A DNA stretch of 63,642 bases, counting the filler, from Reclinomonas americana ATCC 50394 (taxonomy: Eukaryota): the NCBI GenBank assembly GCA_048213135.1. It is 7 parts of 3 records of this genome, joined end to end, with 100 filler letters (N's around TTAATTAATTAA, not from the genome) between each part and the next. Parts side by side here need not be neighbours in the genome. Positions count along the whole stretch, not along the records: positions 32,154 to 58,214 come from PS015060.1; 6 more parts are not named here. The stretch is one strand, 5' to 3'. Under the pieces are notes generated by a model that saw only the letters and a program-made list of their open reading frames with translations, made no database searches and was not told where the DNA came from. Positions 4,309 through 48,500 of this stretch are shown piece after piece (positions within the stretch are counted from its first letter, which is position 1; each line of letters begins with the position of its first letter). The translations under genes and the position numbers were made by a program.

Positions 4309-5439
4309 TCAGTCAACCACCCAAAACCTTTGCCTAACGAGGCACCGATACACCACTGCCTCTGCCTCCTCCACCACGAAACAGCGCAGTACCATCTCCG
4401 GCAAGCATCGCTCCTCCTGCTCCTCCTGCATCTCCTGCACAGCCTCCAATGCCAATCGCGCCCAGTCGAGCTCAAAGCGGGCGAGGCCACACGGCGTCGA
4501 CCACACGCGAATCGTCTCATCGGAGCCACCGCTCACAACATGCTGACCATCGCGAGAGGCGGCAATGCACTGCACCGTTTTTGTGTTGCCCTCCAGCTGT
4601 TGCACTTCCTCGCCACTCATCAATGACCGCACTCGCACGACCGTGTCGGAGCTCCTCCTGCTCACAATGAACTGATTGTCGAGGACAACAGTGGTAGAGC
4701 GCGCCAATTGCAAGGACGGCCGTTCAGCAATCTGTCGAACCTCCTCCCCAGTTGCCAGCGACCACACCCGCACTGAACAGGTAAACGTCGGTATGCAGGC
4801 TCCGGGACGCCGCACTCCGTTCACGCACTCACAAACAACCAGGTGACCATCAGGAGTGACTGCCACAGAAAAGACAAAATAGCCATGGCACTCCGCCGTC
4901 TGCTGCAACTGCAACGCCGCCTCTCCACTCGTCAGCGACAGCACACGCGCTGTACTGTCCCCGTGACTGCCAGTCACAACGTGCTGACTGTCAGGAGTGA
5001 TGGCGACAGACAGCACAGCGCCAGTGAAGCCTTCGAATCGCCGCAATTCCTCTCCCGTCGCCAATGACCACACTCGCACGGTCCTGTCACCACTCCCGCT
5101 TACTATGTGCTGATTATCGGGAGTGATGGCAACAGAGAGCACCTCTTTCGTGTGTCCCTCCAATATCCGCACTTCGTCGCCACTCGCCAGTGACCACACT
5201 CGCACTGTTGCGTGCTCACTCCCGCTGACAACGAGCTGCCCGTCGGGAGTGACGGCGACACATCGCACAGCGCCAGTGTGCCCCACCAGCCGCCGCAGCT
5301 CGGTGCAAGTAAGCAGGGACCACACTCGCACTGTCGCATCAGCGCCGCCACTCGCAATGTGGAGCGCGTTGGGAGAGAAGGCAATGGACAGCACTGGACC
5401 TGTGTGTCCGCGCAGACATTTGGGGGTGGTGGAGAACAT
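4309..5439 (-). CDS. Intronless WD40-repeat protein, copy 1
   Basis: About 7 GH...SVAxTPDG...VSGS.D.TVRVW repeats. Start MFSTTPKC is shared with copy 2. Confidence 0.9.
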   Translation of the reverse strand: MFSTTPKCLRGHTGPVLSIAFSPNALHIASGGADATVRVWSLLTCTELRRLVGHTGAVRCVAVTPDGQLVVSGSEHATVRVWSLASGDEVRILEGHTKEVLSVAITPDNQHIVSGSGDRTVRVWSLATGEELRRFEGFTGAVLSVAITPDSQHVVTGSHGDSTARVLSLTSGEAALQLQQTAECHGYFVFSVAVTPDGHLVVCECVNGVRRPGACIPTFTCSVRVWSLATGEEVRQIAERPSLQLARSTTVVLDNQFIVSRRSSDTVVRVRSLMSGEEVQQLEGNTKTVQCIAASRDGQHVVSGGSDETIRVWSTPCGLARFELDWARLALEAVQEMQEEQEERCLPEMVLRCFVVEEAEAVVYRCLVRQRFWVVD

Positions 5440-5871
5440 AAGGGAGGGAGAGGGAGGGAGGGGGAGGGGGAAAGGAAGAGAATGAAGAGTCCGTGGCGGG
5501 TTTCGTTTCGTGTTGTGATCCGAGTTGTGTTCGAAAAGTCCTGGCAGATGGGGACGACAACTCGACGCATCCACACTGCGATCTGCCGTGGGGGAGTGTA
5601 CTTCGACAAGGTATGTCGAGGAGCAACTGTGACTATCTGCTGCTTTGTTACGAAGGATCGCGTCGACGTCAATTTTTTCATAGACAACAACTTCTCGGCG
5701 TATACGTCACCTCACGCCTCCCTCCCACTCTGCGTCGTCGTCGTCGTGCTCCGACTGATCCATTGCATGATCTAAATGAACCTCTTAAGCCATCGCCCAA
5801 CCTTCACTTGCAACACAAGCTTACAGCGAAGAGAAAAACAAACAACGAACAGTAACGCAGACTTAGAAGAC

Positions 5872-7011
5872 CTATCTCGCTCTCTCCCAGTCAACCACCC
5901 ACAACCTTTGCCTAACGAGGCACCGATACACCACCACCTCCGCCTCCTCCACCATGAAACAGCGCAGCACCATCTCCGGCAGGCATCGCTCCTCCTGCTC
6001 CTCCTGCATGTCCTGCACAGCTTCCAACGCCAAACGCGCCCAGTCGAGCTCAAAGCGGGCGAGGCCACACGGCGTCGACCACACGCGAATCGTCTCATCG
6101 GTGCCTCCACTCACAACATGCTGCCCATCGCGAGAGGCGGCAATGCGCTGCACCGTTTTTGTGTTGCCCTCCAGCTGTTGCACTTCCTCGCCACTCGTCA
6201 ATGACCGCACTCGCACGACCGTGTCGGAGCTCCTCCTGCTCACAATGAACTGATTGTCGAGGACAACAGTGGTAGAGCGCGCCAATTGCAAGGACGGCCG
6301 TTCAGCAGTCTGTCGAACCTCCTCCCCAGTTGCCAGCGACCACACCCGCACTGAAAAGGTAATCGTCGGTACGCAGGCTCCGGGATGTCGCACTCTGTTC
6401 ACGCACTCACACACAGCCAGCTGACCATCGGGAGTGACAGCAACAGACAACACTAAGCAACCATCCTCCAGCTGCTGCAACTGCAACGCCGCCTCTCCAC
6501 TCGTCAGCGACAATACACGCGCTGTATTGTCGCCGACGCTGCCAGCCACAACGTGCTGACTGTCAGGAGTGATGGCGACAGACAGTACCGAGCGAGTGAA
6601 ACCGTCGAATCGTCGCAATTCCTCTCCCGTCGCCAGTGACCACACGCGCACGGACTTATCGTGGCTCCCGCTCACGATGTGCTGACCATCGGGAGTGACG
6701 GCGACAGAGTTGACTCCTCCAGCATGTCCCTCCAACCGTCGCACTTCCTCGCCACTCGCCAGTGACCACACTCGCACGGTTGCGTGCTCACTCCCGCTGA
6801 CAACGAGCTGCCCGTCGGGAGTGACGGCGACACATCGCACAGCGCCAGTGTGCCCCACCAGCCGCCGCAGCTCGGTGCCAGTAAGCAGGGACCACACCCG
6901 CAATGTCCCATCAGCGCCGCCACTCACAATGTGGAGCGCGTTGGGAGAGAAGGCAATGCACGACACTGGGCCACTGTGTCCGCACAGACATTTGGGGGTG
7001 GTGGAGAACAT
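5872..7011 (-). CDS. Intronless WD40-repeat protein, copy 2 (tandem duplicate)
   Basis: 379-aa ORF highly similar to copy 1. The duplication includes flanks (about 4144-5450 vs 5707-7030). Confidence 0.9.
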   Translation of the reverse strand: MFSTTPKCLCGHSGPVSCIAFSPNALHIVSGGADGTLRVWSLLTGTELRRLVGHTGAVRCVAVTPDGQLVVSGSEHATVRVWSLASGEEVRRLEGHAGGVNSVAVTPDGQHIVSGSHDKSVRVWSLATGEELRRFDGFTRSVLSVAITPDSQHVVAGSVGDNTARVLSLTSGEAALQLQQLEDGCLVLSVAVTPDGQLAVCECVNRVRHPGACVPTITFSVRVWSLATGEEVRQTAERPSLQLARSTTVVLDNQFIVSRRSSDTVVRVRSLTSGEEVQQLEGNTKTVQRIAASRDGQHVVSGGTDETIRVWSTPCGLARFELDWARLALEAVQDMQEEQEERCLPEMVLRCFMVEEAEVVVYRCLVRQRLWVVDWERAR

Positions 7012-7299
7012 GAAAGAGGGGGAGAGAGGAGAGGGAGGGGCGAGTAAGTGAGTGAGTGTGAGTGTGTGTGTGTGTGAGAGAGAGAGGGAGAAAGAGAGGA
7101 GGCAACGCAGTCTCTTTGACAGCTACGTATTGATTGGTGAGAAAGTCCTGGCGAATGGGGACGACATTGAAACTCGCGTGGACTGTGGACGTGGAGTGAG
7201 CGTACTCTGACTCTGCACCTGTCACTCCACTCTGTCTCGAGTCTTCAAGGGAAGAAAGCAACTTCAGGACGTCGACGTCGACGTCGACTTCTTTTCATC

Positions 7300-10353: not shown

Positions 10354-11452
10354 ATGAGCGCAGAAGACGCGCCTGGGGTACGCCTCCTCTCCCTTCTCTC
10401 ACTCACACCTCCTCTCACTCACACCTCCTCTCACTCTTCCCTCCTCCCGCCACACACAGCTCCCTCTCTCCTCCATTCAAATCCGCGACCCTTTCATCTT
10501 CCACGACCGCGCCTCCTCTCGGTACATCCTCACAGGCACCACCGATCGCGATCCTTGGCAGGCAGTAGGCGTCGGATTCGACGCCTACACAAGCTCCGAC
10601 TTGCGCACCTGGCACGGTCCATTTGCGGCCTTCCGACCTTCTTCGGAAGATCCCAGGTGGTCGACTACAGTGAACTTTTGGGCGCCTGAAGTGCACGAGT
10701 GGCACGGGCGATTCTTCTTGTTTGCCTCCTTCAAAGCCGCGGGAGCTTGTCGCGGAACACATGTGCTAGTGGCCGAGGATGCACTGGGACCGTATGTGGA
10801 GCACAGTCGGGGAGCTGTGACCCCGAGTGACTGGGAGTGCTTGGATGGGACGCTGTATGTGGACGCGCAAGGGCAGCCGTGGATGGTGTTTTGTCGCGAA
10901 TGGGTGCAGATTGGCGACGGGAGCATGGAGGCAGTGCGTTTGTCGGAGGATTTGCGGGAGGCGGTCGGTGAGCCGCGGAGGTTGTTTACGGCGTCGGAGG
11001 CGGTGTGGGCGAGGCGGATTGACTGTGTGGCGGAGGAGTGGTGTGCGGCGTTTGCGCCGCGGTGTGAGGAAGGGTGGGTCACTGATGGGCCGTTTCTGTG
11101 GAGGCATGCGTCGAGTGGTGCGCTGTGCATGTTGTGGTCGACCGATGGGCACGAGGGCTACGCCATGTTGCGTGTCTCGCTCTGTCTCTTCTTTCCTCTT
11201 CTCCTCACCTCCTTTGTCGGGGACAGGGGCGTGGCGGTCAGCGACTCGGGCAGCGTGGAAGGCCCGTGGCGGCAACTGGCCAAGGCGCTGTTCACCCGCG
11301 ACGGTGGCCACGGTATGCTGTTCCGACGCTCGGACGACGAGCAGCTGATGCTCACACTGCATCGCCCCAACAACACGCCCGACGAGCGCGCCGAGTTCTT
11401 TCGGGTGCGGGAGGTGTCGGCCGACGAGGGCTACTTGGTGATCGAGACGTAA
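10354..11452 (+). CDS. Glycoside hydrolase family 43 (bacterial-type five-bladed beta-propeller), 3 exons
   Basis: IRDPFI...TGTTD, FWAPEVH, CLDGTLY, EWVQIGDG, VTDGPF and DGGHGMLF motifs. Introns at about 10378-10459 and 11167-11226; the latter is 60 nt and in frame, and its removal restores GYAMGVAVS. Confidence 0.9.
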
Positions 11453-16152: not shown

Positions 16153-16366
16153 NNNNNNNNNNNNNNNNNNNNNNNNNNNNNNNNNNNNNNNNNNNNTTAA
16201 TTAATTAANNNNNNNNNNNNNNNNNNNNNNNNNNNNNNNNNNNNNNNNNNNNGTAACGTAACGTAACGTAACGTAACGTAACGTAACGGTACGGTACGGT
16301 ACGGTACGGTACGGTACGTACGTAACGTACGTACGTACTACTACTACTCTCTTCTTACTACTACTA

Positions 16367-16676: not shown

Positions 16677-18411
16677 TCGCATTGGTGAGAAGGCACTGTA
16701 CTGGGGACTTGCGCGACTGGGCATTGCGCACACTCCCAAGTGGTACTACGATCCCAAGAAGAAGGTCTGTTCTTCAGCTCAACTTACCCATCTCCCTGTC
16801 TTCCATTTCTTTCGCTCTTCGTGTTCAGCTCATTCTCTGTCTCTCCTGCCCCTCTCTTCCTCCATGCCTCTCGCTCTCTCTACTCTTGCTCTGTTTCTCC
16901 CTGCTGTGCTCCGTCTCTCCTGCCCCCCTCTTCCTCCATGTCTCCCACTCTCTCTTCTCTTGCTCAGCTTCTCCCTGCTGTGCCCTATCTCTCCTGCCCC
17001 TCTCTTCCTCCATGTTTCTCACTCTCTCTTCTCTTGCTCAGCTTCTCCCTGCTGTGCCCTATCTCTCCTGCCCCTCTCTTCATCCATGCCTCTCGCTCTC
17101 TCTACTCTTGCTCTGCTTCTCCCTGCTGTGCCCTATCTCTCCTGCCCCTCTCTTCCTCCGTGTCTCTCGCTCTCTCTTCTCTTGCTCTGCTTCTCCCTGC
17201 TGTGCCCTATCTCTCCTGCCCCTCTCTTCCTCCATGTTTCTCANNNNNNNNNNNNNNNNNNNNNNNNNNNNNNNNNNNNNNNNNNNNNNNNNNNNNNNNN
17301 NNNNNNNNNNNNNNNNNNNNNNNNNNNNNNNNNNNNNNNNNNNNNNNNNNNNNNNNNNNNNNNNNNNNNNNNNNNNNNNNNNNNNNNNNNNNNNNNNNNN
17401 NNNNNNNNNNNNNNNNNNNNNNNNNNNNNNNNNNNNNNNNNNNNNNNNNNNNNNNNNNNNNNNNNNNNNNNNNNNNNNNNNNNNNNNNNNNNNNNNNNNN
17501 NNNNNNNNNNNNNNNNNNNNNNNNNNNNNNNNNNNNNNNNNNNNNNNNNNNNNNNNNNNNNNNNNNNNNNNNNNNNNNNNNNNNNNNNNNNNNNNNNNNN
17601 NNNNNNNNNNNNNNNNNNNNNNNNNNNNNNNNNNNNNNNNNNNNNNNNNNNNNNNNNNNNNNNNNNNNNNNNNNNNNNNNNNNNNNNNNNNNNNNNNNNN
17701 NNNNNNNNNNNNNNNNNNNNNNNNNNNNNNNNNNNNNNNNNNNNNNNNNNNNNNNNNNNNNNNNNNNNNNNNNNNNNNNNNNNNNNNNNNNNNNNNNNNN
17801 NNNNNNNNNNNNNNNNNNNNNNNNNNNNNNNNNNNNNNNNNNNNNNNNNNNNNNNNNNNNNNNNNNNNNNNNNNNNNTCCCTCTCTTCCTCCATGCCTCT
17901 CACTCTCTCTTCTCTTGCTCAGCTTCTCCCTGCTGTGCCCTATCTCTCCTGCCCCTCTCTTACTCTCTCTTCTCTTGCTCTGCTTCTCCCTGCTGTGCCC
18001 TATCTCTCCTGTCCCTCTCTTCCTCCGTGCCTCTCTCTCTCTCTTCTCTTGCTCAGCTTCTCCCTGCCGTGCTCCGTCTCTCCTGTCCCTCTCTTCCTCC
18101 ATGCCTCTCACTCTCTCTTCTCTTGCTCTGCTTCTCCCTGCTGTATTCCCTGTCTCCTCGTTCCCTGCTCTCTCGCACGAGCATTCTCGCTCAATACCAG
18201 TCTTTTCTTCCATCTATCCCTCCCACATTCTTACTTCATCTCTCCTTCATTCCCTTTTCCCCCTTTCCTTCTTCCTCTCACCCTTCCCTCCCCTCCCAAG
18301 TACTCGGAAAACATGTCCGCCCACCGCGAATGGAAAACCTCGAAACTCTTCTCCCCTCGTCTCGCTTTGACTGCATCATCATCGACAACAACAACAATGG
18401 CGCGACGATGA
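16677..18411 (+). CDS. 3' exons of an unidentified gene
   Basis: Exon about 16677-16764 (RIGEKALYWGLARLGIAHTPKWYYDPKKK) is flanked by cag/gt. A probable last exon starts at about 18301 (YSENMSAHREWK...). Confidence 0.4.
16840..18150. repeat. CT-rich intronic minisatellite, about 80-bp unit, spanning a gap
   Basis: Repeated ctctcctgcccctctcttcctccatg...cttctccctgctgtgccctat units on both sides of the N gap. Confidence 0.85.
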
Positions 18412-18442: not shown

Positions 18443-21400
18443 CTATCTGCCTTGTCGCTGGGAAAAGGCGTATCGGTGATCCAACTCGCTTCTGTCGTCG
18501 CGTTGCTGCTGGGAGGAGAGGTACTCGAGTGTCTGCGACACCGACTGGGAGCTCTCCAGGTAGCGATTGCGCATGGCCTGCGTCTCAGCCTGCAAGCATG
18601 TGATTGAATGAGAACGAATGACAACATGTGTGTGCGTTTCGGCGACGGCAATCAATGACCTCCAGTTGCTCGAGTGCCCTGGCGCGCTCGGCCATCTCCG
18701 ATCGCTTCTTTGTCTCACGCGGTGATAATCGCCCAGCTGCTGCGGACGCCGCCGGAGCCGCCAAAGCTGAAGCAGTGGCGGTGGTCGTAGTACTTACTGC
18801 CGCCGCCGGCGACGGCACCTCGAGATACACATCCGTGTGATCGGCTCTCCTCGGCGACGGCTGCGGCAGTGGCACTGGCGACATGCGCAGCGACGACGAC
18901 GGGTCGCCCACGGCCAATGACGACGCGTCAAGGCTGTCACTAGGCAGTGGTGTACCACCCAGCGATTGACGAGCGGCGCGCTCATCGTGCCGTTGCCGGA
19001 AAAAGTCTCGCAAAGCCGACGCCACCTGCACTGCACGAGCGGCCGGTCTCCCGATCCCCACACCACCGCCGCCGCCACTGCTGCCACTGGCGGCCATGGA
19101 GGACTGCGACAGCGGGGGCGCACCACCATTGCCCACCAGCGGTGCCACGATGGGCGGTTGTGTGTACGGCGACGGGTCGTTCATCGCCGACACACTCTGG
19201 TTGTCGGACAGCGGGTCGTCCCACGACGCCAGCTCACTCGTGCGAGCCGCCTGCTCGTCGAGGACCAGTCCGCCACCGTTGCCACGCATGCCGTCCATGA
19301 CGTAGCCGAGCTCCGAATCCGTGCCATCACCGCCCCCGACAAAGCCACCGCCGACTCCTCCCGTGCCACGCATGGTGGCCAGGGCCGACTCGAGGTGCGC
19401 AATGCGCGAACGCAGCGTCTCCTTGTCCATGGGGTTTGGTGCGGGCGGCGTTGGTGCCGATGCCGACATGTCTCCTAATGTGGGAGACAGAAGAGGGTGA
19501 CAAGGATGCTCTCCGACAACCCACCTCTTAAGAGTCACTCACCAAACATGCCGCGCCCACCCATGCCGAGCATCGTGTGTGCCATGGCAGATGGAACGCC
19601 ATATCGCGACTGCAACTCCACCACCTGCCGCTCTAGCGTCTCATTCGACTGCTCCAGTCCACCACGCAGTATTTGCAGACGATCGCGCTCCTGCAGTCAT
19701 CGACAAGATTGGCTTTCGAATCCGCACACACATCCACGGGCACACACTCACACAATCCGCATACACACATTCTCCTGTCTCAGTGTATTCTTACTCACAT
19801 ACACTCACAACACTAGACGTGCAATNNNNNNNNNNNNNNNNNNNNNNNNNNNNNNNNNNNNNNNNNNNNTTAATTAATTAANNNNNNNNNNNNNNNNNNN
19901 NNNNNNNNNNNNNNNNNNNNNNNNNGACACACACACACACACACACACTCACTCACTCACTCACTCACTCACAAACAACACTAGACGTGCACAATCACAC
20001 ACACACGCAAGTGTAACGCATACTAACATGCACAGATGTCACACAATCACTCACGCAAACTAACAAGGACGCAAAGCCTCCTGTCTCAGTGCATTCTCTC
20101 TCACATACACACACTCTCTCACTCTCTCTCTCTCTCTCTCTCTCTTTCTTTCACATGCTCACCATTTGCGCCACCTCCAACCGCTCCTGCAGCGTGCCAC
20201 ACTCATCCTCCAACGACTGCGCCTTGGAAGAGATACGCTCCAGTCGCTCCACCAGCTGCAGACGTTCGCGGCGCATATCCTCCACGTCTGCACTCGCACA
20301 GCCATCATCAATACGCACTCTCGCTCGCAACCGTACAAGCACAAGCGACGCACCTTGATGCAACCGAGCCATCTTCTGGTCCTGCAGCTGCATCGACGAA
20401 AGTGCGTCGGAGAGCGACTGGTGGTACACGTAGATCCACTCCTTCAGCTCGGCAATCGAGGCAGTCGTCGACAAGAGGCTGCACGAGGTGCATGAGTATG
20501 ACGGAGGGCAGACAGGCAGGCAGGCCACTCAAATACACACCCTTCGCGCACGACATTCGGCAGCACTTTGCTCGGGTGTCGCGACTGCATGCCACAGAAA
20601 ATTAGATCAATGTGTTCGCGGAGAGCAATCCCGTGCGCCATCACGCAACTGCCGGTGGCGAGTGCACAGCCGCGCTGAACGCGGGCGGGAACAGCTCCGA
20701 GAACAGCGACAGGTCGTCGTACAGACTGCGAATGTTGGCCAGGAAAAGCTCCCACTGGTGGTCCTGCTGCTTCAGTGGCGAGGCGGGAGCGCCGGCATCT
20801 GGCTTGCTCGAGGCATCGTGCACGGCAGCCGTCACCGCGGCCGTAAAGACCGGTGACCGGCCCGATGCAGCCGCCGTTTCTGCCGACGGTGACGGGGTGG
20901 CCAGCGCTGGTGAGGCTCCTAGTGCAAGGGGAAAGGAAAGCAGATGAACAGCAAGGAAGCGATGATGTACAAGCCACCAAACTCACCAGTGGGCAGCAAC
21001 GGTTTCGGATTCATCACCGCCGTGTGCATAACACCTTGCTTCAACGACTGCGGCAAGTGTTTGGAAAGGTAGCCAATCACCTGCAGGCTAGAGTGAATGA
21101 ACCAATGACTGTTCGCATATAGTGCACCCTCCCACGCACCCGATCATCGCGGCTGATTTGCAACTTGGACGTCGACGACACGGTGTGGTAGAGCGACTGG
21201 AACTCCGACTTGACAATCTCCTGATTGCGCTCGCATTCGCGCACGCGATGCAGCAACACGGCAATGATCAAGAACACATCGGCGATGATGCGCTCGGTGA
21301 ATTTGGTGGCGTCGTTGGACGGGACTGCGAAGCGGCAATTTAGAATCACGAGAGTACCGTCAAATTCTATCTCTCTCCGTGTAAGTGTGTGTGTCAAGGA

Positions 21401-21577: not shown

Positions 21578-22403
21578 GTCGTCGTCGTCGTACGTACGTA
21601 CGTACGTACGTACGTACGTACGTACGTACGTACGTACGTACGTACGTACGTACGTACGTACGTACGTACGTCGTCGTACGTCGTCGTACGTCGTCGNNNN
21701 NNNNNNNNNNNNNNNNNNNNNNNNNNNNNNNNNNNNNNNNNNNNNNNNNNNNNNNNNNNNNNNNNNNNNNNNNNNNNNNNNNNNNNNNNNNNNNNNNNNN
21801 NNNNNNNNNNNNNNNNNNNNNNNNNNNNNNNNNNNNNNNNNNNNNNNNNNNNNNNNNNNNNNNNNNNNNNNNNNNNNNNNNNNNNNNNNNNNNNNNNNNN
21901 NNNNNNNNNNNNNNNNNNNNNNNNNNNNNNNNNNNNNNNNNNNNNNNNNNNNNNNNNNNNNNNNNNNNNNNNNNNNNNNNNNNNNNNNNNNNNNNNNNNN
22001 NNNNNNNNNNNNNNNNNNNNNNNNNNNNNNNNNNNNNNNNNNNNNNNNNNNNNNNNNNNNNNNNNNNNNNNNNNNNNNNNNNNNNNNNNNNNNNNNNNNN
22101 NNNNNNNNNNNNNNNNNNNNNNNNNNNNNNNNNNNNNNNNNNNNNNNNNNNNNNNNNNNNNNNNNNNNNNNNNNNNNNNNNNNNNNNNNNNNNNNNNNNN
22201 NNNNNNNNNNNNNNNNNNNNNNNNNNNNNNNNNNNNNNNNNNNNNNNNNNNNNNNNNNNNNNNNNNNNNCGGGTGGAGTTCAATAATAGCAATAGCTGCA
22301 GGAGGTCAACTACGAAGTACTTCTTCGTCTACGTCTGTCTCCTCGTCTCTCCTCTCCTCTCTCCTCCTTCCTTCTCTCTCTACCTACTTCTACTGTCACT
22401 CGT

Positions 22404-22458
<55 letters not shown>

Positions 22459-25400
22459 TGTGTGTCAAGGTGGCGCAAAAGACAAGCCCGCAGGAGTTTT
22501 CTGAGCACTTCTCTGTCTCCAAGTCTATGTACCTCCCCCTCAACCTCTCTCTTCTCGCAGTGTCCCTGTCGCACTCTCACTCCTGAGCTCCTCCCTGAAC
22601 CTCTCTCTGTCTATATGCCTCTCCTTCCCTTTCTCTCCCTCCCTCTCCTCCCCCTCTCCCTCTCCCTCCCCTCTCCCTCCCCCTCTCCCTCTCCTCCCCC
22701 CTCTCCCCCCTCTTTGCCCCTACAACGCACCATCACTACCCGTCTCTGGAGGCTCCGGGGTCTGCAGGTCGTGCAGTTCCACATACCAGTGCTGACGGAA
22801 CGAGACAACCAACTTGCGCAACTGCGACACGAAATAAATCAGCACTTTCGCGTGCCACGCAGAATCTCTTCGACTCTACACGCAACTCGGTCCATTGCAG
22901 CAATCGACTTGAAGTACACTTCCCGATTCTGCGACAGTCGGCTGCGCAGTTCGTGCGAGATCAATCCCTTCTTGTTGCCGTCGTCGGTCAGCAACGACAC
23001 GGTCTGGTCCAGCGTCGAGGTGTTCTTCTCCAGAATCTGCACCTGCTGTCGCAGCGACGAGTTGTGCGACTCCAGCACCTGCACAGCCGAGGTCAGCGAC
23101 CCAAGCACCACATCTCCAACAAAACGAGAGACATGCCTCGCACTGCTTCTTCAGCGTCTCGATCTCGGCCACCTTCTCCAATAGCGTCTCCTGCAGCACA
23201 AACACCGAGTTTGGCATGTCCTGTCCGAGTAGCGAGCGGAACGTGGCCGCATTGGCACTCGGTCCGCGCTGCAACAGTTCCTCCATCACGTTCAACGATT
23301 GCTGACCGCTGGCCAGTCGCTCGTGCTCTCGATGCAAACGCTGCTCGAGTTCCATGAGCGGTGTCGGATTTCCGTCGGCCTCCAGGCGCTGATGCTCCAG
23401 GGCCAAAACATAGTCATCCGCAATACCCACATCGGTGGTTCGTGGATACATGGCGCGGTTGGCGCGCGGTGTCGACGATGCGCCCGCCGACGCTGCTGCC
23501 GCTGCCGCTGCCGACGACGACGATGACGATACCGGCATGCGACTCTCGCTGCCACTGGCAATCTCCAGCGTGGGGTCACTGCGCGTCGGAGAGACAGATG
23601 AGCAACACAGAAGGAAAAAAGCGAGAGAGTCACGGTGCGACGCAACAAGTGCCCACTGGCGCCCGAGTGTGTCGGGTATCGCGGCGAGGCTGTGGCCAGG
23701 TAGGACTCCATCTTGCCGTCACCAGGACTGCCGGGTGAGCGCAACGTCGCAAATCGCTGTGCGTGGCTCAGTTGCAGCCTACGAGAGTGGATCAGCAAAC
23801 GAGGCACTTCTCCATTGCCAGTAGAGGATACAAACCTCGCCGCATCCAACTGCTCGCGCAGCGACTTGCTCAACGCACGCTCCTTGTTCAACTCACTCTC
23901 CAGAGCCCGGTACTGATGCTGGAGATTGCGATGCGCGGCCGCCATCACCTCCGACTGCCGGCGCTCGTCCATCAGCTGTCGCTTGGTTTCCTCCAGCAGA
24001 CGCTCCGATGCCACTCGCTCCACCACACTCCGTTCCTGCATGGCATGCGCCATGAGCGGAGTGGCCAAGCGGAATGCCCACTTATTGCACGGAGGACGCA
24101 CCTTCTCTTCCAGATCACGGTACGGCCCCTTGCCGCTCAGCGCGTCCAACTTGCGCTGCAAGTCGGCGGCCAACTGACGGTAGTCAATCTCCTCGTTCAC
24201 CACTGGTTTGATGGCCACGGTGCGAGCCCGGTGTCCGAATAACAGAGAACCCGTGGTCTCGCTGACATTTCTGTCGGCCGGACCAATGTTGACGAGCAGC
24301 GAGGTGCGGCTGTTGCCGCCGAGGGTGTCCTGTGGGAGGGAAAGGGGGAAAGGGGGGGGGGAGGGGAGGGAGGAGAAGGAGGGGGGGGAGGGGGGGAGGA
24401 GGAAGAAGGNNNNNNNNNNNNNNNNNNNNNNNNNNNNNNNNNNNNNNNNNNNNTTAATTAATTAANNNNNNNNNNNNNNNNNNNNNNNNNNNNNNNNNNN
24501 NNNNNNNNNTACTCTCTCTCTCTCTCTCTATTTTCAAGAGACCTTGTCGCTGTGTTGCTTTCTCTGTGTGCTCAATCGACATGACTCTGTGTTTGAGCAG
24601 CTTCTGTACTCTGCCCACAGATTGTCATTCTGCGCAAATCCTCTCTATTTTCAAGAGAGCTTCGGTGCACTCTGGCAGAACATACTGGTCGCTCTCTCTC
24701 TCTTTCTCTCTCTACACGCTCAGTGCATTCAGAGCAGCTCCAACAGTTATCACTGTGCGCTTCCTCTGCCCTCTCTCTCTCTCTTTTTCTCCCTATTGTT
24801 TGTTCGCACGCAACTTGCAGTAATCTGGTGAGCTTCGAGTCACGCCACGGCACGAATCGCGAAGATGAGGCTGGGTCGGAGAGCGCGGCAATCACGTTGC
24901 CGAGGGCTGAAAGTGAAAGGTTGATGCTCTTGGCCTCCTCCAGATGCTGGCCCTCGGCGTGCGTCTTGGCGGCACGCTCGCTGCCGGCCAGATCGACGCA
25001 TGTGAACTTGGCGCGCACGGTGCTGCGTGTGAGGAAAGAGGAATTTAGCAAGAGAGATGGAGGCAAAGAAGGAAGTGAAGACAGAGCGAGGAGGACATAA
25101 AGAGAGTGAGAGAGAGAGGGAGAATGAGATAAATAGGCAGAGCGAGTGACACAAATTCAGACGAGTACTTCGAGGCTTGCAAGGCAGAAGGAGCAGGGAG
25201 AAAATGAGCGAAACATAATCATGGGCTCACAGACAAATGGAAAGAGAGAGAAGAGAGAGAAAGAGAGAGAGACAGAAAGAGAGGAAACAGAAATGAGGCG
25301 AGAAAAGGCGATGGCGACAGAGAAGCAGACAAACAGAAAGCGAGTGAGAGTGAGAGAGAGAGAGAGACAGAGACAGAGGCAGAGGTAGCGATGAAATAAA

Positions 25401-32713: not shown

Positions 32714-35700
32714 TCAAGACGGCACCACATACGTGTGATATCCAAACTCCTCACCGCTGTCGAAGCGCACGATGGCGACTTGACACACCGGGCACTGGCC
32801 ACGACGTGCCGCCACCTCCTCCGCACACACGCGACACAATACCTGATGACCGCACGGTCGCAAGCACGTGTCGCGCACGCCGTCGCACACCATGCACGCG
32901 CGGCGCGACGACAGTGTCGCGACATCACGCAGCTCGCTCGCCAGCTCCTCTGATGTCGGCCGACGGGAGTCTCGCTGATCCACGCACCTGCAATCAACAA
33001 CACAGTGAGTGAGGAAACAAGAAAAGTCCTTCCATCTCCCACCACACACGCACCGCAAACACAGTCGCACAATCCGCTCGCACACCGGTGCAGGCCACAC
33101 ACGACCCACCCGCACATCCGCAATCTCCGATGCGCATCTGCCCAGCTCCTGTTCGTCCATTTCTTGCAATCGCTCCAGCAATGCGTGCACATCAGCAATC
33201 GACTTGCCACACAACAGCTGGAGCAAGATGAGGCCGAGGCAGTACACATCGACACTCGGACGCAGTTGACCGCGCAGTGCCTTTGGATCGGCGTACATGA
33301 GGTCGCCAGCAAAGCCAACCTTGTCATGCGTCTGCCAAGCATGTACAGTATTCGTTACTCCATGCGGCGAGAGAAGGAAAGCGGTCCCTCTTCCGCACCT
33401 TGTGCACCGGGAACCAGTGCGCCACTCCCATGTCCGACACAAATGCTCGGTTGTGCTGGTCAAAGAGAATGTTGGCTGGCTTCAAATCACGATGAATCAC
33501 TGCGCTCATGGAGTCAGTCAATCAACACACGATGGAAAACCAGAGATGGTACAACGCACCAGGCTGCTCCAGAAGCACCACAACAAAAACAGCGCAAGAG
33601 AAGAATGAGAAACAAGCACACTTCAACAATCACGCTCACAGAAACACACACCTTTTCCAGTCTGCGAGGGAAGAAAACAGAAGCAATCAGCCACAAAGGA
33701 AAGGAGGGCGGACATTCTCTCAATCATCAATTCACGCAACTTGTGCATGGCGGCCACCACCTCCGCGCAGCGCAGAATGCAGTTCATGCGATCCTCAATC
33801 GTCATCACGGGCAGTCCGTGCTCCTCAAACTCAAGCAGCCGGTGTTCCAGGTTGTGCGGGCTGACGCACGCTCGAAGAAATGAGCCTCACATTTATCTCT
33901 CCGGTGTTGTCTCATCTTTCCCTTCTCCCACCTCGCGTATCACTCGCTCTCTCCTGCATTCACTTCCTTTGACTGCTTCTCCCATCTCCCCATGCCTAGT
34001 ACGGTTCGCACTCGTTCTCTTCTGTCTTCCATTCTCCTCTCTCTGCCAGTTCCTTCTTCCATCCCTCGAATCATTCGCGCTCGTTACACCTGCATTCTCT
34101 TCTCTTCTCATTCTCTCCCTTCATCTCCACCCCTCGTATCCTTCGCACTCATCTCCCCAACATTCTCATCTCCTCACTGCCTCTCCCTTCTCCCCACCCC
34201 GTATCATTCTCTCCCGCATTCTCCTATCCTCTCTGCCTTTCTCTTCATCTCCACAACTCACCTCATACCCTCCAGCACAATGCACCGCTCGCCGTGATTC
34301 GACTCGGCGTACCCAATCATTCGCACAATCCCCGGAACATTGGAAGTCACCGCCTTGAGCTTCTCCAACTGCGCAGCTCAGAGTGTTTGAGCGACACACA
34401 CACCCACTTCAATCTGCTTTCTTTCCCGCTCACCTCTTCGGCAAACGAGTCGATGCACCACTCCGCCGCCCGATCAAACACTTTCACCGCCACCTCCTCG
34501 TCCATCCATCGACCGGCGTACACCTCCGCCTGGCCACCGCCGCCAAGTCGACGCCGAAAGCTGTCGCTCATGGCCGCCACTTGTTCCCACGCAAACACCG
34601 TCAATGGCGCTGAATATCAAAAGTCAACCGCGCAAAACAAAGGAAGGACCGTATGGGGAAGGCGCACGTCACCTCGCTCATTGAGCTGTGCTTGTACCAA
34701 TCGCAACTCGACAGCCAGACGCTCCGCTCGATCACGCTCCATCTGTCGCAACTCGTCCATGCGTTCGACTGCGGCACACGAGGCGGCACTGACACCATCA
34801 ACCGACTGCCTCGGCTCCTCCCGTGCGACGGCGAGTGCCTGCTGCAACTGAACAGCACGGTCTCGCCATTCCGACGCTAGGCGATTTTGCTCGGCGGCTC
34901 TTTGCTGTTGCTCATCGGCTTCGCGCTGCGTACGCGCAACGATGGCGACATGTCGCTCCACCTGCTGCTGTGCGGCCAGGAGCTCGTCACGCAGGTGGGC
35001 GACTTGTTTTTGCTGCTCTCGTGCTTGCGCCTCCTGCCACTCCGTAGAGCGACGCATCTGGGCCACGAGGTCGTCGTGCTCTCTTCGCTGTCGGTCCCAC
35101 TCTCGATGCTGCAGCTCTCGCTCTTGGTGCGCAGCTGCGAGATCGCGCTGGAGCAGAGCAATGAACTCGTCCTTGTCCGCGGGCTGGCGGCGTGCAATGG
35201 GTGCATTGATAGCCGCCTGCAAAGAGGAAAGCAGGAGACACAGCATGCATGCAGAGTGAGGGTGAATGGTAACGTGAGGAACACTATCGGTTGTCTCACC
35301 TGCCGTGCTGGCACTACATAATCAAACACAGCGAGAACACAAGCAAGTGGAAGGCGTGAGCGTGAAATGCACATACAGCATGAACAAGGCAACAGACTTG
35401 AGAATCAAACCTGGTTGCAGCTGGAATTGTTGTTGTTGTTGTTGTTTTGGCGGAGGCAGTGGCACCGCTGCCGCAATTGCCGAAACTGGTCCAGCAGCTG
35501 GCTGCGCTGCCAGGTCGTCTAGCACCTTCGCCAATTGCGTGTCCCCCTCGTCACGTGCCCACTGAGACGCCGTCTTGCCCTCATCGTCAACCATTGGAAT
35601 GAGATCGGGATGCCGAGTGGCGAGGATATGCGCAATGGCAATGTGGCCTTGTCGGGCAGCGAAATGCAGCGCAGTTGACTGCGGCAAGCTGGAACGGCCG

Positions 35701-42200: not shown

Positions 42201-44997
42201 ACAGAGATGTGGCCTTGTTGAATGGCCGAATCAAAGGCCGAGCAGCCATACTCATCCATCTCCTCATTCGTAAGCAGAACATGCGCGCCCTCACGTGCCA
42301 CAAGCTCGCGCAGCGCCTCCACGTCGTCGTCAAATGCCATCTCCCATGCTTTCCTCATCGGTCGCTGGGGAATGGCACTGCCAACATATCGGAGAGTGAG
42401 TTCGAGAGTGCGTACAACCTGGCACTGAAAAAATATCGGCGCACGAAACGGAGACTAAACGTCGCACGCAGAGTGAACGAGTATGCGAAAATGTAGGAAT
42501 GAGACAAATGATCGACTAGGCGAAAGAATGGAACGGCGTGAAAGCCTCACCTTGCGTGCTGGAGCTGCCAATTCCGCATAAACAGTGAGCAAAGAAATGC
42601 GCAACATGAAAACACGCAACGGGACCAAACCTGCTGGTGGGGGCTGTGGTAGAGGAACAGGTGGAGGCGCAGCGAGACCTTCAAGGAACTCGGCCACTTG
42701 CATTCTGCCCTTGCGTCGTGCCGACTGGGCAGCCGTCTTGCCCTTGGAGGTGACCACACCGATGAGATCAGGGTAGCGATTGACGAGGAGCCGCACGATG
42801 GCTTCATGGCCATGCATGGTAGCAAAGTGCAGCGCGGTGGACTGAGGATGACTAGCTTGAACCCTGCCGAGCGCTCGCACCATTTCCGGCGGACATCGTC
42901 TCTCGTCGGCAAGCAACCACTCCACCACTCGGAGATGCCCGGCAGAAGCGGCCCCCATCAACGGTGTGAGGCCATACTTGGTGACCGCTTGAGCGAGCTG
43001 CGGCCCAATGCCGGTCTCCTCCCACAAATACTCCAAAACGGAGAGGTGGCCGTGATGTGCGGCCCAATAAAATGCGGAGCCACGGGCACCCATCCCCTCA
43101 CTCGTCAGTAGGACGTGAGCACCATCACGCGCCACCATCGCACGGAGAGCGTCCACATCGCCGTCCCTCGCCAGCTGCCACGCACATTTCCTCTGAAGAA
43201 TCGCACTGCCAGCAATCAACGTGAGGGTGTGTATGCAAGCTGAGACCGACGAACCACAAGTGTACGAAACTAGGAGTGCACATCGCATGCAAAATGAACG
43301 ACAATAAGAATAATGTGAGACGATGGATCGAGTGGCAGAATGAAAACGCGATGACGGTCTCACCTGTGGGGCTACGGAGAAAAAAACAGGAAAGCGTGAG
43401 CAAAAAGAAGAGCAGCAAGGCAACATACAAAAGCCGTCAAACCTTGTGGTGGTGGCGGAGGTGGCGGTGGAGGAGCAGCGAGATTGTCAAGGAACTGGGC
43501 CACCTGCTGCTTGCCCTTCTCTCGTGCCCATTGCGCCGCTGTTTTGCCCCGCTTGTTTACCATGCCAATCAGACCAGGAGAGCGAGCGGCAAGGAGCTGC
43601 ACAACGGCGAGGTGGCCGTTGGAGGCAGCATAATGCAGCGCGGTAGACTGTGAGTTGCCGGACATGCAACTGTCAACAGCCCGCACCATCTCCGGCGGGC
43701 ACCGTCTCTCGTCGGCGAGCAACCACTCCACAACTTCCAGACGGCCATTCGAGGCCGCGACCATCAGCGGTGTGAAGCCGCTATCGTTGGTCATGTGTGC
43801 GAGTTGCGGTCCGGCGCCACTCTCCTCCCACAAGTACTCCAAGACAGAGAGATGGCCGCGCTGAGCAGCCCAGTGAAACGAGTTGCCACTGGCACTCATC
43901 TCCTCCCTCTCCAGCAGTATCTGGGCGCCCTCACGCGCCACCAACCTGCGCAGCGCTTGCAAATCGTCGTCCCTCGCCATCTCATACGCTTTCTTCCCCT
44001 GTTGTTGAGAAATTGCACTGCCAACAAATCAAAGTGCGATTGTGAGTGCGCTTGCAAGCGAAAACTGACAAATCACACGCATACACGAAACTGAAAACAA
44101 TGCACGGCATGGAGGGTGGAGTTAGAAACAAGTCGGCGTGAGACAATCGGTTGACTGGCGGAGAGAGAACAGTATGACGGGCTTACCGGGCGTGCTGCCA
44201 CTGTACCGCAAAAGAAGAAGCAAACACATGAAACACGGTGAGCAGAAAGACCACGGCCAGCAATCAAGACGACAGACATGGCAAGCACACCTGGAGGTGG
44301 AGAAGCAGGCGGCTGTGTGGCTGGCGGAGAGGACAGTGGCAGTGGTGGCAGTGGTGGCAGCGGTGGAAGCGGAAGTTCCGCAACAAGGCTGTCAATCAAC
44401 TCGGCCACCTTCTGCTTGTCGTAGTTGCGCGCCCATTGCGCCGCCGTCTTGCCCTCCTTGTTGACCAACGGAATCAGACCGGGGAAGCGAGTGGCAAGGA
44501 GCTGCACAATGTTGCTGCGGCCATTTGCGGCAGCAAAGTGCAGTGCGGTGGACTGTGGATGCACAGAGCGGTCATTGGTGGCCATCAGAACCATCTCCGG
44601 AGGACACCGCCGCTCGTCGGCAAGCAGCCACTCCACCACACGCAAACGCCCAAAGCACGAGGCCGCCATCAACGGCGTCACGCCATAGTCATCGGCCACG
44701 TGCGCGAGTTGTGGCCCCATGCCAGACTCCTCCCACAAGAACGCCAACGCCGGAAGATGACCATGCACGGCGGCGCAGTAGAAAGCCGACCAGCCACGCT
44801 CACTCATCTCTTCTCTCTTCAGCAGTGTCTGGGCGCCCTCACGCGCCACCAACTTGCGCAGTGCGCTCACATTGCCGTCTCTTGCCATTGCCCACGCTTT
44901 TTTCCTGCGTTGCGGATCGGGGGCACTGTGGAGGTATTATCAGTGTGCGTATAAAGAGCAGATATGCGCTGAAAGACCACGCAGGAGCACACCTCAT
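39283..44997 (-). CDS. Ankyrin-array / coiled-coil / RLK-Pelle-like kinase / RING (C3HC4) protein, copy B
   Basis: Same exon architecture as copy A. Ankyrin exons are 44291-44925, 43443-43998, 42631-43192 and 41722-42364. Kinase and RING exons are nearly identical to copy A. Confidence 0.85.
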
Positions 44998-45602
44998 TCT
45001 TCCTGAGAGATTGGAAGGGAGAAGACACCAGCAGATACTTTTTCGTTTGCCTTCTCTTGCGCAAGTGTGTTTGCGTGCGAGAGTTTTTGACGTCGAGTTT
45101 TTCCGTGTTGCCCTCACTTGTCCTATTTCATGCACGCGACGTTGTGAGATTCTTCTCGCCGTGCAAGTGGCCTGCATGTCATATACGCCAATGTAAAACG
45201 CCAAAGGAAAGACTGTGCTTGGTCCCCACGCAACGCTCGACTTGTCACCGCTGCGCGCGAAATACCGCATGCACGTCGACGTCGTTCTCGAGGCCCGCCG
45301 GTCCACAGCGTGGATAGCCACTGTCCAGTACGCATTACCGCAAAGTGCAGGTGAGAGCGATGTTGCAGAATGCACGGCCTGCAAGTTCAAGGTCATTCGC
45401 AAAGGTCTCGACGTTTGCGTGCGACCGACTTATAATTACAATTCGAATTACAAACCCAGTCAGCGCGCGCCTGGGTGACTGACTCTTTTATTCTAACACT
45501 CGCAATTGTGAAAACCGGAAACCAATGACGCTCAACACGGCCAAGAAGTTCAACGTCAGATGTCCTGCGCGCTTTGTTTCATTCGTTGTTTGTGAGAGAG
45601 CA

Positions 45603-48500
<2,898 letters not shown>

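What the first reader, a model, noticed from the sequence alone, without database searches (positions are those of the whole stretch)
35411..44925. Ankyrin modules vary mainly at the target-binding positions (natural DARPin-like variation)
Seen: across the 8 modules the scaffold is nearly fixed ([41 protein letters not shown]) while the helix-1 and beta-turn residues change. Repeat 2 reads FYWAAQRD / FSWAAYHG / FDSAVQQG / FYCAAVHG / FHWAAQRG / FYWAAHHG. Repeat 3 reads MVAASNG / MGAASAG / MTAAFNE / MAAAWNG / MAASCFG. Repeat 4 reads YAAANG / FAASNG / FAALDG / FAARQG / FATMHG / FAAWGG. Known: these are the concave-face positions of the TPLHxAAxxG motif that are randomised in designed ankyrin binders. 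Inference: diversifying selection on ligand specificity.
Basis: partly seen in the sequence, partly recalled or inferred. Interest (0 to 1): 0.72.

Follow-up and report, generated by a model that had tools for sequence, protein, structure and literature searches.

The report
Ankyrin module arrays in twin kinase–RING genes
Eight DARPin-sized ankyrin modules, apparently four in each of two neighbouring protist genes that also encode a kinase and a RING finger, vary most per site at the usual ankyrin contact positions, but at about the neutral rate, so positive selection is not shown.

Summary
The quoted strings are real. All 8 modules lie on the minus strand. Each is a five-repeat ankyrin domain the size and shape of an N3C DARPin.

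They are probably not 8 separate units. An inferred splicing model places four modules, one exon each, at the start of each of two tandem paralogous genes. Each gene continues into a coiled coil, a protein kinase and a C-terminal RING.

Variation is enriched at canonical contact positions 2, 3, 5, 13, 14 and 33: mean column entropy 1.50 against 0.69, p=1.7e-6. These columns are only 10 of the 30 most variable.

Codon models give omega 0.95 at those positions, 0.39 at convex exposed positions and 0.16 in the framework. Omega never exceeds 1 significantly.

Site-model tests are significant on a single tree (p about 1e-6). The modules are recombinant mosaics. With segment-specific trees the tests fade: M1a/M2a p=0.078, M8a/M8 p=0.095.

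This pattern is the known general hypervariation of ankyrin repeats (PMC1261162). Verdict: the structural observation holds, diversifying selection is not demonstrated, and the domain architecture is the more unusual feature.

The parts
44291..44888 (-). Gene A, module M1 exon (from ATG at 44888): five ankyrin repeats plus a Pro-rich linker, ending in a phase-1 donor AG|GTGTGC
44187..44194 (-). Inferred 8-nt microexon (follows CAG, precedes GTAAGC)
   Evidence: inferred; no RNA data
43443..43998 (-). Gene A, module M2 exon (556 nt)
43364..43371 (-). Inferred 8-nt microexon (TAG| ... |GTGAGA)
42631..43192 (-). Gene A, module M3 exon (562 nt; CTG where the other modules have ATG)
42551..42558 (-). 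Inferred 8-nt microexon
41722..42364 (-). Gene A, module M4 exon (643 nt)
41610..41617 (-). Inferred 8-nt microexon
40997..41519 (-). Gene A, exon rich in Q/E/R heptad-like sequence, read as a coiled coil; no Pfam family
   Evidence: the coiled-coil call rests on sequence appearance only
39898..40920 (-). Gene A, protein kinase exons: G-loop GGGGQAEVY and VAVK at about 40791-40920, HRDLKPAN and DMG at about 39966-40076; exact splice sites not fixed
   Evidence: Pkinase piece E=7.8e-7, below cut-off because fragmentary
39283..39897 (-). Gene A, kinase C-lobe plus C-terminal RING (zf-C3HC4_3) and stop codon
   Evidence: 36.1 bits against cut-off 27
37953..38592 (-). Gene B, module M5 exon (from ATG at 38592): chimeric, M1-like first 40 codon columns and M2-like remainder; poly-Q/poly-E linker
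37850..37857 (-). Inferred 8-nt microexon
37110..37677 (-). Gene B, module M6 exon (sister of M3; no ATG at the conserved position)
37030..37037 (-). Inferred 8-nt microexon
36297..36843 (-). Gene B, module M7 exon (M4-like)
36206..36213 (-). Inferred 8-nt microexon
35411..36038 (-). Gene B, module M8 exon (M4-like)
35300..35307 (-). Inferred 8-nt microexon
34674..35216 (-). Gene B, coiled-coil-like exon (83% identical to A's)
32714..34592 (-). Gene B, kinase exons and C-terminal RING with stop codon (K1 98%, K4 97%, C-lobe+RING 91% identical to A)

Best explanation
The region holds two tandemly duplicated, intron-containing eukaryotic genes on the minus strand, roughly 44888-39283 and 38592-32714. 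Each most likely encodes one long protein: four five-repeat ankyrin modules joined by Pro/Gln/Glu-rich linkers, then a coiled-coil-like stretch, a protein kinase domain and a C-terminal RING finger. Each module is one exon and is the size and shape of an N3C DARPin. Shown: the ankyrin fold is under purifying selection (framework omega 0.16). The canonical contact positions, the tip of a long loop between repeats 3 and 4, and the helix-helix turn (positions 16-18) change at about the neutral rate (omega about 1). Modules exchange segments by gene conversion or unequal crossing-over, which has also changed which module sits where in the two genes. Inferred: the modules are recruiting domains that bring partners to the kinase and E3 part. 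Their contact faces are either free of constraint or track different, changing ligands. The data show faster change on the concave face than on the convex face, but not dN/dS above 1. The variation is therefore best read as the ordinary hypervariation of ankyrin contact positions, amplified by module duplication and mosaic conversion, and not as proven diversifying selection.
For: Modules: exactly 8 tblastn hits. Pfam Ank families above cut-off in 8 of 8. The AlphaFold2 model of M2 has pLDDT 89 and pTM 0.85, with helix pairs in the expected register. The best Foldseek PDB matches are N3C DARPins (TM by target about 0.8, rmsd 2.3-2.6 A).

Gene model: a two-intron junction with an 8-nt microexon gives open reading frames of 971 and 986 aa with 0 internal stops. 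The 8 module exons differ in length (547-643 nt), yet all are 1 mod 3, and all 8 microexons are flanked by AG and GT[GA]AG. Two of 8 modules lack the ATG. A 1-nt indel lies in the M4/M8 'tail'. Downstream come kinase motifs and a RING in both copies.

Selection: M0 omega is 0.397; my code reproduces the IQ-TREE lnL of -3046.82. Contact positions give 0.95 against 0.33 for the rest (LRT 51.4, p=7e-13) and do not differ from 1 (p=0.71). The five classes are 0.95, 0.39, 0.67, 0.42 and 0.16; concave against convex has p=1.1e-5. Long-loop tip 1.06; conserved loop base 0.17.

Recombination: the best model has two breakpoints, at codon columns 40 and 104 (dAICc 123). Segment topologies reject each other (AU p=0.0026, 0.023, 0.029). 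dS between sister modules runs from 0.05 to 0.42 by segment, and 0.93 for M4-M7.

Baseline: between genes A and B the coiled coil, kinase and RING have dS 0.18, dN 0.042 and omega 0.23, and introns K=0.17. Sister modules have dN 0.13-0.17.

Literature: across natural ankyrin repeats the same positions are hypervariable. Position 32 lies close to them, and position 17 is unexpectedly variable (PMC1261162, passages).
Against: There are no transcript data. The microexon model is inferred, and other in-frame splice combinations exist. Six of 8 modules carry an ATG at the same place, and the only close relative, an EST-derived protein (P0001, 69% identical), starts there.

Some signals lean towards positive selection. 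Single-tree site tests are highly significant. Four sites near repeat 4 keep nominal p=0.006-0.011 with segment trees. In segment 3, three sister pairs have dN at contact positions of 0.32-0.62 against dS of 0.20-0.37 at the other codons. M7/M8 with segment trees is still p=0.004, although M8a/M8 is not significant.

The omega intervals were computed with branch lengths and kappa fixed, so they are too narrow. The assignment of 'convex' positions (18, 21, 25, 26, 29) is recalled and was not measured on coordinates. The kinase pieces are below Pfam's cut-off individually, and the kinase has DMG in place of DFG. No binding partner is known.
Confidence: 0.55

Rival explanations
1. One reading: the contact positions are under positive, diversifying selection for new ligand specificities, like a natural DARPin library.
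For: Contact positions evolve 2.4 times faster than convex exposed ones. Single-tree M1a/M2a, M7/M8 and M8a/M8 give 2dlnL of 25.3, 27.6 and 19.9. Four sites have nominal omega>1 with segment trees, one of them at repeat 4 position 13 and two at positions 1 and 32, next to the contact face. M3-M6 have 16 replacement and 1 silent difference at contact positions. Many aromatic residues (W, F, Y, H) sit at positions 5, 10 and 13.
Against: Omega at these positions is 0.95 and no subset exceeds 1 significantly (the largest are 1.15-1.20, p>0.3). After allowing for recombination, M1a/M2a has p=0.078 and M8a/M8 p=0.095. No site survives correction for 173 tests. In the recently homogenised segment 2, only 3 of 18 replacement differences between sister modules are at contact positions, which are 8 of 64 codons. 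Recent and deep branches do not differ. The same positional pattern is seen across all ankyrin repeats without any such selection being invoked (PMC1261162).
Confidence: 0.25
2. Each module is a separate small gene: an ankyrin domain, a Pro-rich linker and a hydrophobic C-terminal tail (a tail-anchored protein), arranged as a tandem gene array next to a kinase-RING gene.
For: Six of 8 modules have an ATG at the same conserved place. P0001, called a 'complete' ORF by its source, starts at that Met. Every module's open frame runs on into 20-60 mostly hydrophobic residues before a stop.
Against: M3 and M6 have CTG there. Conservation extends about 12 codons upstream of the Met. The hydrophobic tails coincide with polypyrimidine tracts followed by AG, and they differ by a 1-nt indel between M4 and M8. 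Exon lengths vary but always keep phase 1, and all 8 junctions splice in frame. The coiled-coil exon of gene B has no Met at its start.
Confidence: 0.15
3. The mosaic pattern, or part of the array, is an assembly artefact: similar repeats mis-joined or collapsed.
For: The window is a chain of contigs joined by N44-TTAATTAATTAA-N44 linkers, with N gaps at microsatellites. Stretches of 90 nt are 100% identical between M2 and M5, next to stretches 77% identical.
Against: No linker or N run lies between 32154 and 46650. All 8 modules and both downstream parts keep open frames and splice signals. Divergence between A and B is coherent over 2.5 kb of coiled coil, kinase, RING and introns.
Confidence: 0.05

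Closest known systems
Designed ankyrin repeat proteins (DARPins, N3C format) and the ANK-N5C library
   Same: Five stacked repeats per module. The best structural matches are N3C DARPins. The framework is conserved and the most variable class of columns is 2, 3, 5, 13, 14, 33, the positions randomised in DARPins (PMC1261162). ANK-N5C randomises 2, 3, 5, 10, 13 in beta-turn and helix 1 in its own numbering, which I did not reconcile with the DARPin numbering (PMC4308713).
   Different: These modules are natural and only about 30% identical to DARPins. They carry insertions (one residue in helix 2 of repeats 1 and 2, longer R1-R2 and R2-R3 loops, and an R3-R4 loop about 17 residues longer than canonical, with an invariant ADERRCPPE base and a variable tip). 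Positions 1, 16-18 and 32 vary as much. Four modules are strung on linkers inside a kinase-RING protein. Selection for binding is not shown.
General hypervariation of contact positions in natural ankyrin repeats (Magliery and Regan 2005, PMC1261162)
   Same: The same set of positions, including the two oddities reported there: position 32 lying close to the contact positions, and position 17 in the inter-helix turn being unexpectedly variable. Here both are among the four top sites.
   Different: That analysis pools unrelated repeats from many proteins. Here the pattern is seen among 8 recent paralogous modules, with codon-level rates.
Arabidopsis KEG (Keep on Going): RING, kinase, ankyrin repeats, HERC2-like repeats
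   Same: One polypeptide combining ankyrin repeats, a protein kinase domain and a RING E3 domain (PMC3697954, passages).
   Different: The order is reversed (ankyrin at the N-terminus, RING at the C-terminus). There are no HERC2-like repeats, there are four separate ankyrin modules and a coiled coil, and no sequence relationship was found (one search found none; weak evidence).
Ankyrin-R/B membrane-binding domain (24 repeats)
   Same: The best PDB sequence match (4rlv, E=4.3e-40, summed over many repeats). From recall, it is a long ankyrin solenoid that binds many different partners through its inner groove.
   Different: A continuous 24-repeat solenoid, not four capped five-repeat modules on flexible linkers; no kinase or RING.

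Membership tests
Ankyrin repeat domain (Pfam Ank / Ank_2 clan) | Profile match above the curated cut-off | tested here: met
   Ank_2 scores 59.7-90.5 bits (cut-off 27.3) in 8 of 8 modules
Ankyrin repeat domain (Pfam Ank / Ank_2 clan) | Stacked helix-turn-helix plus loop repeats forming an L-shaped solenoid | tested here: met
   The AF2 model (pLDDT 89) has five helix pairs. Foldseek matches to DARPins and ankyrin structures have probability 1.00 and rmsd about 2.4 A
DARPin-like variation pattern | Variation concentrated at positions 2, 3, 5, 13, 14, 33 on a fixed framework | tested here: inconclusive
   Enriched (entropy 1.50 against 0.69, p=1.7e-6; omega 0.95 against 0.33), but these are only 10 of the 30 most variable columns; positions 1, 16-18, 32 and loop tips vary as much
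Diversifying (positive) selection on a binding surface | A class of sites with dN/dS significantly above 1 after screening for recombination | tested here: not met
   Recombination detected. With segment trees M1a/M2a has p=0.078 and M8a/M8 p=0.095. Contact-position omega is 0.95
Diversifying (positive) selection on a binding surface | Fast-evolving sites lie on the concave face and not on convex or buried positions | tested here: met
   Concave 0.95, convex 0.39, framework 0.16; LRT p=1.1e-5. The convex set is assigned from recall
Eukaryotic protein kinase domain | Profile match, with G-loop, VAIK Lys, HRD catalytic loop and DFG | tested here: inconclusive
   [13 protein letters not shown] and HRDLKPAN are present; DFG reads DMG. 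Pfam Pkinase matches pieces only (E=7.8e-7 and 0.005, below the 31.7-bit cut-off). Nearest PDB match is IRAK4 at 4.5e-5. The spliced whole domain was not scored
RING finger E3 (zf-C3HC4_3) | Profile match above cut-off with the C3HC4 pattern | tested here: met
   36.1 bits against cut-off 27. PDB RING matches: BRE1, MDM2, XIAP
KEG-type RING-kinase-ankyrin E3 | RING, kinase, ankyrin and HERC2-like repeats in that order | tested here: not met
   The order here is ankyrin, coiled coil, kinase, RING. No HERC2-like match appeared in the Pfam scans

The most novel reading that the evidence does not exclude
The two genes form a lineage-specific cassette system. Each DARPin-sized ankyrin module plus its 8-nt microexon is a phase-symmetric unit that can be duplicated, deleted, swapped or partly converted between the tandem genes without breaking the frame. 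This would give a kinase/RING-E3 a changing set of four recognition heads, a natural multi-specific binder array, possibly used to recognise variable targets such as those of parasites or prey.
Probability: 0.12. Interest if true: 0.7.

Novelty: new variant of a known kind. Interest (0 to 1): 0.35.

Why it matters
The finding itself, variation at ankyrin contact positions, is the textbook behaviour of the fold, and no selection is proven. As stated, it is ordinary.

What is less ordinary is the setting:
- Capped five-repeat modules, each in its own exon, repeated four times in front of a kinase and a RING.
- Duplicated in tandem and reshuffled by recombination.
- No close relative among 1.84 billion representative proteins except one EST-derived protein.

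If transcripts confirm the model, it would be a compact example of modular evolution of target recognition in an E3/kinase. It would also be a set of 8-nt microexons that can be tested directly.

The case also shows how recombination among tandem modules produces false positive-selection signals: p fell from about 1e-6 to 0.08-0.1.

Tried and rejected
- Bacterial-code ORF listing was uninformative, because the region is eukaryotic with introns.
- Tandem Repeats Finder found nothing, because its longest period is 500 and the unit here is about 800-940 nt.
- Listing all single-intron in-frame solutions gave 18-58 per junction in the junctions that were printed; the output was cut. It could not settle the splice sites.
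- Reading through to the strong GTGAG donor is blocked by in-frame stops in M2, M4, M5 and M8.
- Homologue searches: the near-length search gave one close hit, P0001. The 'longer' search gave only generic ankyrin proteins, 25-42% identical. The exhaustive search gave 63,202 generic ankyrin hits at E<=0.001, and among the 150 listed only P0001 was above 46% identity. The kinase C-lobe+RING 'longer' search found nothing (weak evidence). No extra sequences could therefore be added to the codon analysis.
- crashed on a division by zero, and one search used the wrong frames for three kinase exons. One search is the corrected table. The intron figures do not depend on frame.
- NG86 within contact codons inflates local dS through multi-step paths, so I relied on likelihood models.
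- My guess that the ORF at 45483-45764 (+) is an MPN domain got no Pfam support.
- A paper search for 'hypervariable positions' in ankyrin repeats gave one unrelated paper.

Full report
WHAT IS THERE

The window is eukaryotic DNA. It holds kinesin, exocyst Sec5 and WD40 genes, and it has spliceosomal-type introns. It is also a chain of contigs joined by N44-TTAATTAATTAA-N44 linkers. The stretch 32154-46650 has no N and no linker.

tblastn with one module finds exactly 8 copies, M1-M4 at 44.9-41.8 kb and M5-M8 at 38.6-35.5 kb. They are 56-80% identical to M2 and 55-79% identical pairwise. Every quoted helix-1 string is in the alignment.

All 8 pass Pfam Ank_2. Each module has five repeats: an N-cap-like repeat, three internal repeats and a C-cap-like repeat. 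An AlphaFold2 model of M2, built on the 8 modules plus one EST-derived relative, has pLDDT 89 and pTM 0.85, with helix pairs exactly in the expected register. Its best PDB matches are N3C DARPins (TM by target about 0.8, rmsd 2.3-2.6 A, about 30% identity). 'DARPin-like module' is therefore a fair description of size and fold.

GENE CONTEXT

Downstream of M4 and of M8 lie near-identical copies of three parts:
- a Q/E/R-rich, coiled-coil-like exon;
- exons carrying [21 protein letters not shown] and DMG, that is, a protein kinase. Its pieces match Pfam Pkinase at E=7.8e-7 and 0.005, and the nearest PDB match is IRAK4 at 4.5e-5;
- a C-terminal RING (zf-C3HC4_3, 36.1 bits against cut-off 27).

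Each module's frame ends in a Pro/Gln/Glu-rich linker followed by AG|GT(G/T)TG. Then come a polypyrimidine tract and (C/T)AG, then 8 nt, a strong donor GT(G/A)AG, and 83-188 nt further a CAG acceptor about 12 codons before the conserved '[10 protein letters not shown]'.

Splicing this way gives open frames of 971 aa (gene A) and 986 aa (gene B) from the ATG of M1 or M5 to the end of the coiled-coil exon, with no stop. The eight module exons differ in length (547-643 nt), yet all are 1 mod 3. This model is inferred, and other in-frame combinations exist. Three observations argue against eight separate genes:
- M3 and M6 lack the ATG.
- The M4 and M8 'tails' differ by a 1-nt indel.
- Gene B's coiled-coil exon has no Met at its start.

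The ATG in 6 of 8 modules, and P0001 starting at that Met, keep the separate-gene rival alive.

WHERE THE VARIATION SITS

I mapped the 173 alignment columns to the canonical 33-residue numbering. The register was checked against HMMER alignments to ankyrin structures and against the model's helices.

The DARPin positions are 2, 3, 5, 13, 14 and 33, as stated in PMC1261162 (passage read). Results:
- These positions cover 25 columns with mean entropy 1.50 bits.
- The 117 other canonical columns average 0.69 (Mann-Whitney p=1.7e-6).
- The 31 inserted-loop or tail columns average 0.92.
- Only 10 of the 30 most variable columns are DARPin positions.

Positions 1, 10, 16-18 and 32, the C-cap, and the tip of an R3-R4 loop about 17 residues longer than canonical are as variable. 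The base of that loop ([11 protein letters not shown]) and 'EE.G.GPQLA' are nearly invariant, with omega 0.17 each.

SELECTION TESTS

Whole-module pairwise dN/dS is 0.26-0.76. M0 omega is 0.397 in IQ-TREE. My own GY94/F3x4 code reproduces the same likelihood and omega.

Partitioned omega on a single tree is 0.96 at contact positions and 0.33 elsewhere. The two differ (p=1.2e-13), and the first does not differ from 1 (p=0.79).

Site models on a single tree look strongly positive:

| Comparison | 2dlnL |
|---|---|
| M1a/M2a | 25.3 |
| M7/M8 | 27.6 |
| M8a/M8 | 19.9 |

About 3% of sites fall in a class with omega at the upper bound. The sites are repeat 4 positions 1, 13, 17 and 32, plus one loop site.

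RECOMBINATION

Sliding-window identity is a mosaic. M2 and M5 are 100% identical over 90 nt but 77% identical in neighbouring windows. A GARD-like search over 190 segments prefers two breakpoints, at codon columns 40 and 104: AICc 6074.5 with none, 5996.0 with one, 5951.0 with two and 5967.9 with three.

The segment topologies conflict. M5 groups with M1 in segment 1 and with M2 afterwards. The AU test rejects each foreign topology (p=0.0026, 0.023, 0.029). dS between sister modules rises and falls with dN: 0.05-0.07 in segment 2 for M2-M5 and M3-M6, and 0.28-0.42 in segment 3, reaching 0.93 for M4-M7. This points to different coalescence depths, not to selection alone.

With segment-specific trees and branch lengths:
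- Contact positions give omega 0.95 and the rest 0.33 (p=7e-13). The test against 1 has p=0.71.
- M1a/M2a falls to 2dlnL 5.1 (p=0.078).
- M7/M8 is 11.0 (p=0.004), but with omega_s=1.29 for 31% of sites. M8a/M8 is 1.7 (p=0.095). The M7/M8 signal therefore reflects a neutral class, not omega above 1.

Five-class fit:

| Class of columns | Omega |
|---|---|
| Concave contact positions | 0.95 |
| Convex exposed (18, 21, 25, 26, 29; assigned from recall) | 0.39 |
| Positions 1, 9, 10, 15-17 | 0.67 |
| Inserted loops | 0.42 |
| Framework | 0.16 |

Concave against convex has p=1.1e-5. No subset has omega significantly above 1. Those intervals are conditional on fixed branch lengths. Recent and deep branches give 1.01 and 0.86.

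Per-site tests leave four sites at p=0.006-0.011 out of 173, and none survives correction. In the recently homogenised segment 2, only 3 of 18 replacement differences between sister modules lie at contact positions.

INTERNAL BASELINE

Between genes A and B, the coiled coil, kinase and RING have dS 0.18, dN 0.042 and omega 0.23. Introns have K=0.17, from 94 differences in 620 aligned sites. Sister modules have similar dS overall (0.18-0.31) but dN of 0.13-0.17. The ankyrin part therefore evolves three to four times faster at the protein level than the rest of the same genes.

Module order does not correspond one to one between the genes. M5 is an M1/M2 chimera, M6 resembles M3, and M7 and M8 both resemble M4. 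Modules have therefore been lost, gained or fused by unequal exchange.

READING

Shown:
- fold conservation;
- neutral-rate change at the canonical contact face, the long-loop tip and the inter-helix turn;
- recombination among modules;
- a faster concave than convex face.

Inferred:
- one protein per gene;
- modules acting as recruiting heads for the kinase and E3 part.

Not shown: positive selection. The positional pattern, including the odd behaviour of positions 17 and 32, is what Magliery and Regan reported for ankyrin repeats in general (PMC1261162, passages). Designed libraries exploit the same pattern (PMC4308713 and PMC8683736, passages).

The domain combination recalls plant KEG (PMC3697954, passages), but in a different order and without detectable homology.

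LIMITS

- Only 8 recombining sequences were available, and no close relatives beyond one EST-derived protein.
- There are no RNA data and no model coordinates for measuring solvent exposure.
- The spliced proteins could not be submitted to the search tools.
- Closed collections (metagenome contigs, viral contigs) were not searched.

Noticed in passing
window 16153-16252, 19826-19925, 24410-24509, 32054-32153, 58215-58314, 60683-60782: Six identical N44-TTAATTAATTAA-N44 blocks. These look like the all-frame-stop linker used to chain contigs (recalled convention), so order and adjacency across them may be arbitrary. The ankyrin region (32154-46650) is one uninterrupted piece.
   Followed up: partly
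window 17244-17877, 21697-22269, 28921-29544, 46651-47399, 61532-61750; short runs at 14436 and 56925: Larger N gaps, most of them flanked by simple repeats or microsatellites ((CT)n, (GAGT)n, CGT-rich and others). A (GTAAC)n run starts at 16253, right after a linker.
   Followed up: no
window about 40229-40238 (gene A) and the matching place in gene B, about 33.66 kb: A possible 10-nt microexon inside the kinase domain, preceded by a polypyrimidine tract plus CAG and followed by GTGTGTG. Spliced in a particular phase it would give '...[20 protein letters not shown]', a normal-looking spacing before the catalytic loop. Worked out by hand only.
   Followed up: partly
window about 39990-40010 (gene A) and about 33420-33440 (gene B): The kinase has DMG where kinases normally have DFG, while [12 protein letters not shown] and the G-loop are intact. 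Activity is uncertain.
   Followed up: no
window 37953-38090: The linker after module M5 is a long poly-Pro, poly-Gln, then poly-Glu/Asp run. The other linkers are Pro-rich or Gln-rich and of different lengths, always differing by multiples of 3.
   Followed up: partly
window 4309-5706 and 5872-7122, minus strand: Two adjacent open frames that both match WD40 beta-propellers strongly (E about 1e-51): another tandem pair of repeat-protein genes in the same window.
   Followed up: no
window 10358-11452, plus strand: An open frame matching glycoside hydrolase family 43 (E=1.7e-27). It lies on a different contig piece from the ankyrin genes.
   Followed up: no
window 38851-40065, plus strand, and other long frames antisense to genes A and B: Long stop-free frames (up to 404 aa) antisense to the kinase-RING exons, probably a by-product of base composition. 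Not tested.
   Followed up: no
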